Below, piece after piece: positions 47,680 through 51,756 of a stretch of 64,000 bases of DNA. Both the position numbers and the translations under genes were made by a program. Positions within the stretch are counted from its first letter, which is position 1; each line of letters opens with the position of its first letter. This stretch comes from Promethearchaeota archaeon (GTDB taxonomy: Archaea > Asgardarchaeota > Lokiarchaeia > Sigyniarchaeales > SOKP01). The stretch spans positions 64,001 to 128,000 of the forward strand of contig JAEOTP010000016.1 in NCBI GenBank assembly GCA_016839765.1, given 5' to 3'. Below the pieces are notes generated by a model. The model saw only the letters and a list, made by a program, of their open reading frames with translations. It was not told the origin of the DNA and searched no databases.

Positions 47680-47997
47680 ATGGTTAATGATACCACACTA
47701 ATAATAAAAAACCGTTCTGATAAAGATAGAACTATTAAAGATGCTATTTTTGCATTTTCTGGAGGGACCAAATCACTAATGATAAAAGGTGAAGGTGATG
47801 AAATTTCAACTGCAGTGGAAGTTGCTGAAATTTTAAAACATCGGATGTACCCAGGTGTAGAAATAGCGAATATTTCACTGGGAAGCCGTCCATATTATTA
47901 TGATAATCGACAAGCTTATAGAGTTAAAAAGAAGGATAAGCAAAAAAAAGATTTAATCTCAAAGATAGAAATAACACTTTCAAAATCGATTCAATAG
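47680..47997 (+). CDS. Divergent Alba-family nucleic-acid-binding protein
   Basis: IKGEGDEISTAVEVAEIL...ISLGS...ISKIEITL. Confidence 0.8.
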   Translation: MVNDTTLIIKNRSDKDRTIKDAIFAFSGGTKSLMIKGEGDEISTAVEVAEILKHRMYPGVEIANISLGSRPYYYDNRQAYRVKKKDKQKKDLISKIEITLSKSIQ

Positions 47998-48170: not shown

Positions 48171-48998
48171 TTAATTCGAATTTAATTGCTTTTCTGCTTT
48201 TCTTTTTTGTCTTTTTTCAATAAGTTTATTCCAGTTAAACGTCATAATAAAGAACATAAGAGTTATTGTAACCAATAACATTATTGCTTCAGTTATTACA
48301 CTTACTTTATCTTCTAAGATAGGAATAAGTGCTAAGATAGGAAGAAATGCATAGAAAAGAGTTGTTATATTTTTTCCTAACCACGCCCAAATAAGACATT
48401 TACGAAAGTTTATGGGCTTTTCTGACATGCCTAAAGCAATCCATAGAGGATCATCGGGAATAGGTAATGCAGCAGCAATAAATATGTACAAATACATACT
48501 TTTTGGATGTTCTACCACTATTTTGCCAAAACCTTGAACATTTTCAAGAGTCTTATTTGCTGCAACTTTTTTTGCACCTTTTCCAATTAAGAAACTGACT
48601 AATTCTCCTAAAGCGCTACCTAATCCACCAGCAAGAGTAATTCCTAAAATTTGCAACCAGAAATATCCATTTAGTAAAATCTCTCCCATTGTTAACCCTT
48701 GATATATATAATTTGAATAAATTGAATTTGAGAATGAAAAGAGTATAAAAGGATACGGTATAGGAAAACCTACACTAGCATTTCCAATCAAGCAAATGAA
48801 AAACGAAATTATAATAGCTAAAAAATAGCTAGTTCCTTCTGTTAAATTAGCAATATTCCTTCTTGCTTGATAAACAAGATTTTCTATTGCTGGGATTGTT
48901 AGAAATAAGACAAGATAGAGGATTATAGCTAAATAAAAAAAAATAAACACAATTGATAACTTTTTTGGTACTTTCATAATTTTTGTTCCCGTTTTCAT
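48171..48998 (-). CDS. DedA/VTT-family membrane protein
   Basis: GLGSALGELVSFLIG, ALPIPDD, GKNI. Confidence 0.8.
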   Translation of the reverse strand: MKTGTKIMKVPKKLSIVFIFFYLAIILYLVLFLTIPAIENLVYQARRNIANLTEGTSYFLAIIISFFICLIGNASVGFPIPYPFILFSFSNSIYSNYIYQGLTMGEILLNGYFWLQILGITLAGGLGSALGELVSFLIGKGAKKVAANKTLENVQGFGKIVVEHPKSMYLYIFIAAALPIPDDPLWIALGMSEKPINFRKCLIWAWLGKNITTLFYAFLPILALIPILEDKVSVITEAIMLLVTITLMFFIMTFNWNKLIEKRQKRKAEKQLNSN

Positions 48999-49387
48999 CC
49001 AGAAGATTTCGAGATTTTTGTATTTAATCCATTTCTTGCTTTTAGTAATAATTCAAGATTACCTTCTATCTTCCCAATCTTGTTTACTTTATTAGGCATT
49101 AGCATATTTTCAATAACTAAAATTAGTTCATCTGTTTTTGGATTATATATGATGTCGCCTTTCGCTACTTCTTTTTTGGATTTTGGATTAGTGCCTTTAA
49201 AAATTTCAACTCCTGGAAGGGTCCAATACTTTTTCCCCCCAAAATTATATCTCCCTCTTAAAACAAGAGGTAATTTATCTAAAATTGCATCTGCAGATAA
49301 AGGGGCAAAATGTCGAATTATATTTCCTTTTAATTCACAGATTCCAAAAAGATTGATATTTATAGGAATGTCTCCACTATCAGGCAT
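48995..49387 (-). CDS. Cyclophilin-like fold protein
   Basis: RHFAPLSADAILDKLP, GDIIY, NKIG. Confidence 0.75.
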   Translation of the reverse strand: MPDSGDIPININLFGICELKGNIIRHFAPLSADAILDKLPLVLRGRYNFGGKKYWTLPGVEIFKGTNPKSKKEVAKGDIIYNPKTDELILVIENMLMPNKVNKIGKIEGNLELLLKARNGLNTKISKSSG

Positions 49388-49479
49388 GATTTATTTATAG
49401 AATCAATTTTGCTATTTATATTATTTCAAATTTATTTTTAAAAAATTTTGTCCCATAATTGTTGGATTTAATAATAAGA

Positions 49480-49487
49480 TTTAAATA
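49480..49487 (+). promoter_or_regulatory. TATA box (TTTAAATA) upstream of the candidate ncRNA
   Basis: Centred about 27 nt upstream of G49511, the first base of the terminal helix. Confidence 0.55.
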
Positions 49488-49510
49488 TTCATTTCACCAT
49501 CTTATTTATT

Positions 49511-49985
49511 GGACAATAGTATTGCATTGGAATTGAATACAATTATTACAGTCCACAGTAGAGTAAATTGCGACTATTTAATAAGTTGAAATAACTCAAA
49601 GATTTTTTATTTTTGGTGACTAAGGATTTAATGATTACATTGAATCCAATTGTTTTTTATTATTGATTTACATTTGTTCCTATAGTACTCTATAGAAAAT
49701 TTCATAAGTTTTAATATTTACATCAATTCAGCAAATAATTATATTATACAAATAATTGCTATAAAAGGAAAAGTAGGTTATACTTAGGAGCGATAATAAT
49801 ATGAATTCTTGTCGTATTGAGTAAATTTTTTGATACTCGAGACAATAAATCAAAAATGGCTCTTTAGAAAAATTTCCTAATTTCCCAATAGAGGCTTTGA
49901 TTCAGGAGATCATTCATAGGAAGAAATAGTGCAATTTTCCTTTGATACAATTCTTCTGAGGTTATTGGAGCTACTATTGTCCACC
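49511..49985 (+). ncRNA. Candidate large structured ncRNA (~475 nt), family unrecognised
   Basis: Perfect 11-bp 5'/3' helix, nested long-range helices, multiple hairpins with G-U pairs, upstream TATA, downstream T8. Confidence 0.65.
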
Positions 49986-50840
49986 TTTTTTTTCTCTTTT
50001 AAGCTGATTGAAATAATTTAAATCTTCAATAGTATCAATATCGTAAAAATTTTTTCTTGAATCTATTTTAAATGGAAATATATTTTGATGTTGCTTTAAA
50101 TATATATTTAATATTTCTCTAATTTCCTCTACTGGATTACTTTTAGAAAGTTTATTTAAAATTTCTAAAAAAGAGTAGTTTAAGACTAATATTGGAATAA
50201 TACGTTTAAGATATATTTCTTTGGGAACTGAATTTATATCGATCTTTTTAATTTCTTTAATTTTAATTTTTGGTTTAGTTTCATCAGATTCTAAAATTGA
50301 TATAAAATTAATTCTCCCTTTACCAGATTTATATAAATGTTTGGCTTGAATTTCTTGGTAAAAAATATAAGGGCTAGTTAGAAGTAATTCAAATTTTTCG
50401 TAAATAAAACTAAAAATTTCTTTTAATAACTCAATATTGAAAATTGTATCCCCAGGAAAAACAATAAATACATTACCCTTCTTGTAAATAATCTTGTTCT
50501 TCATTATGGAAAGTAAAGAAAACATTGGTCCCTTCTTATAATCTTGGCCTGAATTAACTATAAATAATTTATTTTTTAAATTCCGATGCTCTTTTATTAA
50601 TTTATCCAAAAAAGCTTCAATTTTTTCACTTAGATATCCAGTAACAACAGCAATTTTAGATACTCTTAATATACTAAGATCTCTAATTAAATAATTAAGT
50701 ATGGTAATGTTATTAAGAGCATTTATTTTAATTAGTGGTTTAGGAATTTTTTGATTAATTTTACTATATCTAGTTCCTTTACCAGCACATAAAATTATAG
50801 GTATTATACTTTTTTCTTTATTCTTCTTTTGTGGTAACAA
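49974..50840 (-). CDS. NTP-transferase domain protein
   Basis: IILCAGKGTR, PKPL, PGD, FYDIDT. Confidence 0.82.
   Translation of the reverse strand: MLPQKKNKEKSIIPIILCAGKGTRYSKINQKIPKPLIKINALNNITILNYLIRDLSILRVSKIAVVTGYLSEKIEAFLDKLIKEHRNLKNKLFIVNSGQDYKKGPMFSLLSIMKNKIIYKKGNVFIVFPGDTIFNIELLKEIFSFIYEKFELLLTSPYIFYQEIQAKHLYKSGKGRINFISILESDETKPKIKIKEIKKIDINSVPKEIYLKRIIPILVLNYSFLEILNKLSKSNPVEEIREILNIYLKQHQNIFPFKIDSRKNFYDIDTIEDLNYFNQLKREKKGGQ
49986..49993 (+). terminator. Oligo-T terminator of the candidate ncRNA
   Basis: T8 immediately after ...GTCCACC. Confidence 0.5.
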
Positions 50841-51756
50841 TTGGATTTCCTTCCATATCTATTATAATTGTATGTTCTTGCTGGGCTACAGGGGCACCAG
50901 TCCTTTCAAGTAATATTGGATAATGATCAAGAATCTTCTTACGTAAAAATCTATCAATTATTCCTTTAATATCCTTTTTTAAAATGCCGTTTTTCTCCAG
51001 TAATCGAGGTGAAAATGGAAGGCGATTAGTTATTTTTTCTACTTTATTCATTAAATCTAGATCTTTATAGGAGAGCCCTTTTTTAATCTTTTTAACAAAA
51101 CGATAAATGTAAGACTGTGCTCCATTTACAACTTTACCAACTCCTGATGTGGTAAAGGGTTCACACGCATAAGCATCACCCGGTTTTAAAACTTGATTAT
51201 GACTGGTATCTTTAAAATTTGGTATAAATGGACCAGCATGCAGATTATATCTTTTTAATTCATGACCTCCGAGATTAGTAATTGGTCTTAAACCATAATT
51301 AATAATTTTTTCAGCAATAGCTTCTCCTAACTCATATAATTTAGTTCCTGGTTTGAAAATAGCAATAGCGGCTTCAAGACCATCATTTGCTGCATCAATA
51401 TAATTTTGAAGGGTTTTATCATTATTAATATTGAATGTAATGGCAGAATCAGCGATATATCCTTTATAATGAGCCCCCAAATCAATTTTTAATAATCCCC
51501 TATCCGGTACAATTGTTTCATCATCAATAGAAGGGCTATAATGAGCAGCAATCTTGTCCAAGGAGATATTTATTGGAAAAGCTAATTCGCATCCTTGGTT
51601 AAATATTTCATCTTCACATTTATTTGCAATTTCTAAAAATAATACTCCCGGTTTAATAATCTTTTTAGCCAATTTTTTTGCATATATTACAGCTTTACCG
51701 GCTTTTTTATATGATTCTATCCATTCTTCAGTCATAATTAATAAAGAGTTTATCAT
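50818..51756 (-). CDS. map: Type II methionine aminopeptidase
   Basis: AFPINIS...AAHY, DLGAH..GYIADSA, NLGGH, EPF, EHT. Confidence 0.95.
   Translation of the reverse strand: MINSLLIMTEEWIESYKKAGKAVIYAKKLAKKIIKPGVLFLEIANKCEDEIFNQGCELAFPINISLDKIAAHYSPSIDDETIVPDRGLLKIDLGAHYKGYIADSAITFNINNDKTLQNYIDAANDGLEAAIAIFKPGTKLYELGEAIAEKIINYGLRPITNLGGHELKRYNLHAGPFIPNFKDTSHNQVLKPGDAYACEPFTTSGVGKVVNGAQSYIYRFVKKIKKGLSYKDLDLMNKVEKITNRLPFSPRLLEKNGILKKDIKGIIDRFLRKKILDHYPILLERTGAPVAQQEHTIIIDMEGNPIVTTKEE

What the first reader, a model, noticed from the sequence alone, without database searches (positions are those of the whole stretch)
49511..49985. Candidate novel ~475-nt highly structured ncRNA with its own promoter and terminator
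Seen: a 586-bp ORF-free gap in a gene-dense region. TATA (49480-87) predicts a start at G49511. GGACAATAGTA (49511-21) pairs perfectly with TACTATTGTCC (49972-82), followed by ACC and T8. Properly nested long-range helices: 49578-84/49962-68, 49648-53/49947-52, AAAGGAAAA 49764-72/TTTTCCTTT 49935-43, TATGAAT 49800-06/ATTCATA 49912-18. Side hairpins: 49597-615, GGATTTAATG/CATTGAATCC 49624-47, CTATAG/CTATAG 49680-95, TTGTC-gta-TTGAGTA/TACTCGA-GACAA 49809-45, AATCAAA/TTTGATT 49848-902. Several mismatches are G-U on the + strand, supporting an RNA of that polarity. The end (stem + A + CC) resembles a tRNA acceptor end. I find no RNase P (GAGGAAAGUCC), SRP helix-8, 5S or tmRNA T-arm signature. Its 3' end overlaps the last codons (KKGGQ*) of the convergent gene, next to the map-aspS-truD-pth2-rpl38e cluster. 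Inference: an undescribed Asgard large RNA or an extremely diverged/expanded housekeeping RNA. Caveat: AT-rich DNA pairs easily by chance.
Basis: partly seen in the sequence, partly recalled or inferred. Interest (0 to 1): 0.9.

Follow-up and report, generated by a model that had tools for sequence, protein, structure and literature searches.

The report
Large unknown RNA of Loki archaea
The gene-free gap holds a real, single-copy gene for an abundant folded RNA of about 475 bases that is kept in every genus of one large family of Loki-type Asgard archaea, matches no described RNA family, and has no known job.

Summary
The element is real. It is a TATA-driven, single-copy ncRNA gene (49511 to ~49983, + strand). 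I found it in all 13 genera of one Lokiarchaeia family (probably GTDB SOKP01): 111 distinct sequences, 332-632 nt. It was not found in other Asgard families searched. The terminal 10-bp helix is 99.5% paired, with double-sided changes at 5 of 10 pairs. Metatranscriptome contigs from four studies cover 49527-49983 and almost none of the flanking genes.

The tRNA-like ACC end is not conserved. The window copy lacks about 30 nt at 49730.

It is not RNase P, SRP or 5S: the first two lie elsewhere in this genome, and the family has a separate, circularly permuted 5S gene. It is not tmRNA (no SmpB, T-arm or tag) and not a MITE. Only a small core is conserved: the terminal helix, CAUUGG, and a weak G·U-rich partner strand. 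My best guess is a stable protein-binding scaffold RNA; the function is inferred, not shown. Earlier notes of this scan reported the same RNA on other genomes. I found no paper describing it.

The parts
49470..49487 (+). BRE-like purine run and TATA box (TTTAAATA 49480-87), 30-31 nt before the RNA 5' G in nearly all orthologs
49511..49983 (+). ncRNA gene body, ~472-475 nt here and 332-632 nt in the family
49511..49520 (+). P1 5' strand (GGACAAUAGU); its sequence is nearly invariant across the family
49524..49530 (+). J1 motif GCAUUGG, the most conserved non-terminal motif (CATTGG in 81 of 87 orthologs); possible 5' strand of a weak P2
49593..49616 (+). hairpin with an oligo-U loop; a similar hairpin recurs at this position in most genera
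49624..49647 (+). lineage-specific 10-bp hairpin
49730..49731 (+). site of a ~30-nt deletion in the window copy; it removes the 3' strand of a long arm that is conserved in close relatives
   Evidence: (table 5c)
49807..49845 (+). hairpin with conserved UCUUGU...GAGACA flanks and an oligo-U loop (g1, g18, g22, g25, g29)
49893..49972 (+). 3' arm abutting P1; its 3' strand (49965-70) can alternatively pair with J1
49973..49982 (+). P1 3' strand, antisense to the last codons of the convergent nucleotidyltransferase gene
49986..49993 (+). T8 tract, an archaeal terminator-like run present after P1 in nearly all orthologs
48995..49387 (-). divergently transcribed cyclophilin-like gene (usual 5' neighbour; separated from the RNA in genus g23)
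49974..50840 (-). convergent MobA-like nucleotidyltransferase gene (the usual 3' neighbour, kept even in g23)

Best explanation
Shown or strongly supported: a stand-alone, single-copy gene gives a stable, abundant, multi-hairpin RNA whose 5' and 3' ends pair (P1). Inferred: the RNA works in trans as the scaffold of a ribonucleoprotein. A protein reads the small conserved core, made of the P1 sequence, the CAUUGG motif and the strand 13-16 nt before the 3' end. With that strand CAUUGG can form an irregular, G·U-rich helix (P2), or a local 3' arm can displace it. The 300-550-nt interior gains and loses whole hairpins, so it acts as a flexible spacer or docking surface rather than a catalytic core; its oligo-U loops are candidate Sm-like (SmAP) sites. 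The biological role is most likely housekeeping or growth-state control (sequestering or tethering a protein, as 6S, 7SK, Y or raiA/ModT RNAs do). That last step is a guess.
For: Present at the same locus in all 13 genera of the family, single copy. TATA spacing fixed at 30-31 nt. P1 is 99.5% paired, with 5 of 10 pairs changed on both sides and 0 of 500 shuffles as high; the other 5 pairs never vary although mean column identity is 35%, so the sequence and not only the pairing is selected. The DNA stays unchanged when the overlapping protein's reading frame changes (L010, L012). J1 can pair with the 3' strand at 5 or more of 6 positions in 90% of 110 orthologs versus 30% of background windows, with U·G/U-A interchange. 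Whole helices are deleted in some orthologs (L016, L027, L105, the window copy). RNA contigs of four studies cover only 49527-49983 of a 3-kb stretch, apart from one short piece at 49239-96, and three contigs end at 49982-83. Runs of 6 or more U occur 2.5-fold above shuffles, and three or four LSm genes are present.
Against: No partner protein was identified. Contigs cannot show strand or abundance, and the runs were chosen for holding this stretch. Folding z-scores vary among orthologs (-0.95 to -7.3), and interior alignments between genera are poor. P2 is thermodynamically disfavoured against the local arm in most orthologs, and the rare J1 variants mostly break it rather than compensate. 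The oligo-U runs sit in hairpin loops, unlike classical Sm sites. LSm copy number is not higher than in relatives that lack the RNA.
Confidence: 0.45

Rival explanations
1. A trans-acting guide or switch RNA. J1 (CAUUGG) is freed or hidden by strand exchange between P2 and the local 3' arm, and when free it pairs with another RNA such as a tRNA 3' CCA (as a T-box UGGN does), pre-rRNA or mRNA.
For: J1 is nearly invariant and has no covarying partner in the 5' half. Two similar 5' strands compete for one 3' strand in most genera, and in genus g20 J1 is fully paired.
Against: Six to seven nucleotides is too short for specific targeting. The family HMM finds nothing significant in the 16S, 23S, 5S, SRP or RNase P loci. 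No target covariation was tested or found.
Confidence: 0.17
2. A degenerate tmRNA or tRNA mimic that acts on the ribosome or on tRNA-handling enzymes.
For: The 5' GG start, the paired ends and the D-loop-like CAUUGGUU(U)AG resemble tRNA/tmRNA (my recollection). Its size and variable interior resemble tmRNA.
Against: No SmpB in 89 family genomes. No T-loop enrichment and no conserved tag frame. A3-U rather than G3·U. ACC is not conserved and P1 is extended in some orthologs. RF00023 and ARAGORN do not hit this locus.
Confidence: 0.07
3. A highly diverged RNase P/MRP-like paralog: AGGAGCUUUGA/UCGGAGCU would be P4, with a giant P3-like insertion bound by the neighbouring divergent Alba protein.
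For: The 3' end resembles MRP CR-V (recalled from memory). An Alba paralog lies 1.5 kb away in the window and in the same neighbourhood in the other family genomes tested.
Against: A complete RNase P RNA exists elsewhere. No Rfam P/MRP hit at E<=5 or E<=0.5. No bulged U. The putative P4 5' strand is present in only about half of the orthologs (43 of 87). No covariation for the required pseudoknot. The Alba gene is about 11 kb from the RNA in G099, and a weak Alba-like hit lies in the same neighbourhood in family f4, which lacks the RNA.
Confidence: 0.06
4. A cis element (3' UTR, terminator or antisense regulator) of the convergent aspS-map-nucleotidyltransferase transcript.
For: It stays next to the nucleotidyltransferase 3' end even in g23, where the other neighbours moved.
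Against: It has its own conserved TATA and T-tract on the + strand. U·G pairs are favoured only on +. The + strand folds better in 20 of 26 orthologs. RNA contigs cover the element but not the convergent genes. The overlap with the stop codon varies or is absent in other genera.
Confidence: 0.08
5. A domesticated MITE or other mobile-element remnant with terminal inverted repeats.
For: It has 10-11-bp terminal inverted repeats and a variable interior.
Against: Single copy, fixed orthologous position across 13 genera, no target-site duplication, no true viral copies, and G·U-tolerant covariation typical of RNA.
Confidence: 0.03

Closest known systems
Large abundant prokaryotic ncRNAs of unresolved mechanism, e.g. 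raiA motif/ModT RNA (Lence et al. 2024, PMC11706538); ROOL, GOLLD and OLE (from memory)
   Same: Stand-alone, structured, apparently abundant transcript conserved across a clade; probably protein-associated.
   Different: No Rfam match. It is archaeal and confined to one family, AT-rich, and has only a ~30-nt conserved core with a freely varying interior rather than an ornate conserved fold.
tmRNA (Rfam RF00023)
   Same: Paired ends, D-loop-like 5' motif, similar size, variable interior.
   Different: No T-arm, G3·U70, CCA, tag frame or SmpB.
Archaeal SRP RNA (RF01857) and RNase P RNA (RF00373)
   Same: TATA-driven, single-copy stable RNA closed by a terminal helix and a U-tract.
   Different: Both exist elsewhere in this genome. 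No helix-8 or CR-I to CR-V motifs, and no HMM cross-match with SRP.
Y RNA / YrlA (Ro60 partners)
   Same: Sequence-conserved terminal stem with a variable interior, as expected for protein recognition of the stem.
   Different: No TROVE/Ro60 found in 4 family genomes; 3-5 times longer.
5S rRNA (RF00001)
   Same: Terminal helix, a CAU-GG motif right after it, and a long arm abutting the terminal helix.
   Different: The family has a separate permuted 5S gene, and a family 5S HMM gives no hit on 68 orthologs.

Membership tests
tmRNA | SmpB partner in the genome | tested here: not met
   0 of 89 family genomes at >=90% completeness
tmRNA | T-arm, G3·U70 acceptor and NCCA end | tested here: not met
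   No T-loop enrichment, A3-U pair, 3' flank not conserved
tmRNA | Conserved tag reading frame | tested here: not met
   Longest stop-free stretch equals shuffles (41 vs 42 aa); no shared tag peptide
RNase P / MRP RNA | Covariance-model match and P4 pseudoknot with CR-I to CR-V | tested here: not met
   No hit; true RNase P RNA at G000:C6, 126 bits
RNase P / MRP RNA | Cleavage of pre-tRNA or pre-rRNA | not testable with these tools
   Needs a biochemical assay
SRP RNA | Helix-8 SRP54 motif and Alu domain | tested here: not met
   SRP RNA lies on C33; an SRP HMM does not hit the orthologs
5S rRNA | Loop C, loop E and sequence/CM match | tested here: not met
   RF00001 never hits this locus in 135 genomes; separate permuted gene; nhmmer gives 0 hits
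Y RNA | Ro60/TROVE partner | tested here: not met
   0 of 5 genomes, 4 of them in this family; small sample
Box C/D guide RNA | RUGAUGA and terminal CUGA boxes | tested here: not met
   C box in 1 of 87 orthologs, terminal D box in 0
MITE | Many dispersed copies with target-site duplication | tested here: not met
   One copy per genome at a fixed site
Group I intron | P7 helix, J8/7 and P9 with terminal G, inserted in a host gene | tested here: not met
   GAGACA could pair with the 3' UGUCC as a P7 mimic, but it does not covary (L123) while P1 does; no host gene, no P9
Sm/SmAP-bound RNA | Oligo-U site bound by an Sm-like ring | tested here: inconclusive
   U-runs enriched 2.5-fold but located in hairpin loops; LSm genes present

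The most novel reading that the evidence does not exclude
A previously unknown class of housekeeping-level archaeal ribonucleoprotein: a ~500-nt scaffold or switch RNA that arose in one Asgard family and performs a core RNA-metabolism or regulatory task, of the kind that long scaffold RNAs (7SK, telomerase RNA, U3) perform in eukaryotes.
Probability: 0.3. Interest if true: 0.88.

Novelty: categorically new. Interest (0 to 1): 0.68.

Why it matters
Apart from rRNA, SRP and RNase P RNA, I know of almost no conserved archaeal RNA of this size. This one is kept as a single copy in every genus of a large Asgard family, and it is the only part of its 3-kb neighbourhood that assembles well from sediment RNA. 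It therefore probably has an important job in the lineage closest to eukaryotes. The conserved core of about 30 nt and the natural deletion variants give direct handles for probing and pull-downs. Limits: it was not found outside this one family, it is absent from the complete genomes of the sister family that probably include the cultured strains, and its function is unproven.

Tried and rejected
Rfam at permissive E-values on the window and 8 divergent orthologs: nothing.

Supersized 5S idea, prompted by the lack of a 5S hit in G000: rejected. The family has a separate permuted 5S gene, whose locus falls at a contig end in G000, and a 5S HMM gives no hit.

tmRNA, RNase P/MRP, split SRP, Y RNA, C/D guide, group I P7 mimic and CsrB-like GGA sponge (GGAG is enriched, 2.3 vs 0.5 per RNA, but the copies are mostly paired): none holds family-wide. 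A U3 box A-like string occurs in the 3' arm of a few orthologs (recalled resemblance); it is not conserved.

Homologs outside the family were sought by synteny with the cyclophilin-like gene and map, by a promoter+P1+J1 pattern over 379 Asgard genomes (outside matches lack the P1 sequence) and by a sequence-only model on 5 genomes (best E 0.006, not inspected further). None was found in those searched; a homolog with a changed P1 sequence could be missed.

Viral pattern hits were all chance. An intergenic element conserved near map in the sister family reads as a small zinc-ribbon ORF on the other strand. Seven literature searches found no description.

Full report
Observation. The gap between a cyclophilin-like gene (48995-49387, -) and a MobA-like nucleotidyltransferase (stop at 49974-76, -) has no ORF of 50 aa or more inside it. 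TTTAAATA at 49480-87, the terminal inverted repeat 49511-21/49972-82 and ACC + T8 are as described. The + strand folds with z -3.86 (0 of 100 shuffles as good) and the - strand with z -2.78; 35 random genomic windows of the same length and GC reach at best -3.5. The ensemble instead forms a local 3' arm (49893-49972, 0.79-0.99) abutting the terminal helix P1, and this arm is the RNAalifold consensus across the genus.

Organism and distribution. Exact-pattern hits carry Promethearchaeota (Lokiarchaeia) titles, and one same-genus record is SOKP01000020. I infer GTDB family SOKP01; the name link is my own knowledge. BLAST found the element in 33 of 36 same-genus genomes (including some weak matches). 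All 29 full copies I extracted have the TATA box, the same 5' and 3' ends and a T-tract, and all lie between the same two genes. Fetching the syntenic interval gave orthologs in all 13 genera of the family. Metagenomes added 29 more full copies, all syntenic. In total there are 111 distinct sequences of 332-632 nt. The gene is single-copy in G000. It was not found outside the family by synteny, by a promoter+P1+CAUUGG pattern over 379 Asgard genomes, or by a sequence model on five genomes; a homolog with a changed P1 could be missed. No true viral copy was found.

It is an RNA, on the + strand. In 40 diverse orthologs (mean column identity 35%), P1 is paired in 99.5% of cells. Five of ten pairs change on both sides (e.g. 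C-G to U-A or G-C, A-U to U-A, G-C to A-U) and no shuffle reaches this (relatedness is not corrected for). The conservation is not driven by the overlapping protein: in L010 and L012 the protein ends in another frame while the DNA is unchanged. U·G variants in P1 and in the arm work only on +, and + folds better in 20 of 26 orthologs. Laying four metatranscriptomes from four studies on 48200-51200 gave contigs on 49527-49983, plus one short piece at 49239-96. Three contigs end at 49982-83, where an adapter sequence follows. Caveats: these are contigs of related strains, they cannot show strand or level, and the runs were selected for holding this stretch. Two of the runs, and the two closest genomes, carry about 30 extra nt at 49730. 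The window copy therefore has a deletion (strain variant or assembly error) that removes one strand of a conserved long arm.

Anatomy. Only three things are conserved family-wide: the P1 sequence (five pairs never vary), the motif (G)CAUUGG just after it (81 of 87), and a strand 13-16 nt before the 3' end. That strand can pair with CAUUGG at five or more of six positions in 90% of orthologs versus 30% of background windows, as C-G, A·A or A-U, U·G/U-A, U·G/U-A, G-C, G·U. In genus g20 this P2 is a perfect 10-bp helix. In most other genera a local arm with a look-alike 5' strand wins thermodynamically, and rare changes in CAUUGG are mostly not compensated. P2 is therefore a candidate helix or switch, not an established one. 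The interior consists of lineage-specific hairpins, two of them with oligo-U loops; whole helices are lost in some copies. The ACC tail is not conserved (about 20 of 87), and P1 extends outward in several genomes, which removes the tRNA-acceptor reading.

What it is not. Rfam gives nothing for the window or for eight divergent orthologs. RNase P RNA (126 bits) and SRP RNA are elsewhere in G000, and full-length SRP RNAs exist in relatives. tmRNA fails on SmpB (0 of 89 genomes), T-loop, G3·U and tag frame. No Ro60 was found and there are no C/D boxes. G000 has no 5S hit, so I tested a supersized 5S. The family instead has a separate, circularly permuted 5S gene flanked by a bulge-helix-bulge motif at two alternative sites. 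Its locus falls at a contig end in G000, and a 5S HMM does not hit 68 orthologs of this RNA. A MITE is excluded by the single copy and fixed position.

Mechanism. Shown or strongly supported: an independent gene, a discrete RNA, P1, and a small sequence-constrained core with a plastic interior. Inferred (about 45%): the RNA is the scaffold of a stable RNP in which a protein reads P1/J1/P2, and the interior is a spacer or docking surface. SmAP (3-4 LSm genes) and Alba paralogs are untested candidates, and neither tracks the RNA's distribution. Rivals: a guide or switch RNA using CAUUGG in trans (17%), a cis element of the convergent operon (8%), a tRNA/tmRNA mimic (7%), an RNase P/MRP relic (6%) and a mobile remnant (3%). 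The remainder is for mechanisms I have not thought of.

Novelty. No paper in the searchable library describes it. The nearest functional analogy is to abundant clade-wide RNAs of unresolved mechanism such as raiA/ModT (PMC11706538). Earlier notes of this scan describe what appears to be the same RNA in other genomes; they are not independent evidence. I rate it as a new RNA family that fails membership in every class tested. Its interest is limited by the restriction to one family and the lack of a function.

Noticed in passing
L161:1500-1665 (+), L160:1525-1725 (-), L166-L192; locus at the start of G000 contig C47 is unassembled: The family's 5S rRNA gene is circularly permuted and framed by a bulge-helix-bulge motif at either of two sites; cutting and ligation would rebuild a normal 5S as a ring. 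Exact motif in 21 loci; weak RF00001 hits in 81 of 135 genomes, only 2 above the cut-off. Earlier scan notes report this too.
   Followed up: partly
L216:~1395-1420, L217:~1420-1440, L218:~1385-1410 (16S 5' leaders) versus the 5S flanks: The 16S leader carries the same ATGTGGTT(A) word as the 3' flank of the permuted 5S processing stem, suggesting shared or borrowed processing stems.
   Followed up: no
window 49730: The window copy lacks ~30 nt present in the two closest genomes and in two metatranscriptomes; it may be a strain deletion or an assembly error.
   Followed up: partly
L159/L162/L163 (G044:C1:1399892-1400758): A sister-family complete genome has three tandem, identical, canonical 5S genes, each in a ~375-bp repeat with its own TATA box.
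   Followed up: no
window 47680-47997 (+): A divergent Alba paralog sits in this neighbourhood in all six family genomes tested; the family has 2-4 Alba genes versus 1-2 in the sister family.
   Followed up: partly
L124 (G114:C87:6174-6230) and L125 (G114:C151): G114 has two copies of the locus; one holds only the promoter and 5' part of the RNA, followed by unrelated sequence.
   Followed up: no
L157 (G003:C5:27170-27960): This ortholog appears to span ~790 nt between its P1 strands, longer than all others, possibly through an insertion; it was left out of the length range.
   Followed up: no
L221:~500-1100 (G066:C8): A ~530-bp AT-rich insertion with a broken membrane-protein-like frame sits between the cyclophilin-like gene and the RNA promoter in the closest relative.
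   Followed up: no
L002:1435-1745, L325-L328: SRP RNAs of these Lokiarchaeia all score below the Rfam cut-off (58-96 bits) and have a divergent Alu region and helix-8 loop.
   Followed up: no
L196:~1480-1640, L202:~1550-1790, L204:~2120-2330: A conserved unannotated short ORF (starts MEIV, with CxxC pairs) lies near map and the nucleotidyltransferase in the sister family.
   Followed up: no
L043, L062, L063, L067, L073: Records titled Hermodarchaeota, Odinarchaeota, Hodarchaeota and Nanopelagicaceae carry this whole Lokiarchaeia locus, so they are probably mislabelled or misbinned.
   Followed up: no
L164 (G085:C68), L165 (G015:C263): The only two canonical, non-permuted 5S genes in the family survey appear to follow a 23S 3' end and differ from the family type; possibly contaminating contigs.
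   Followed up: no
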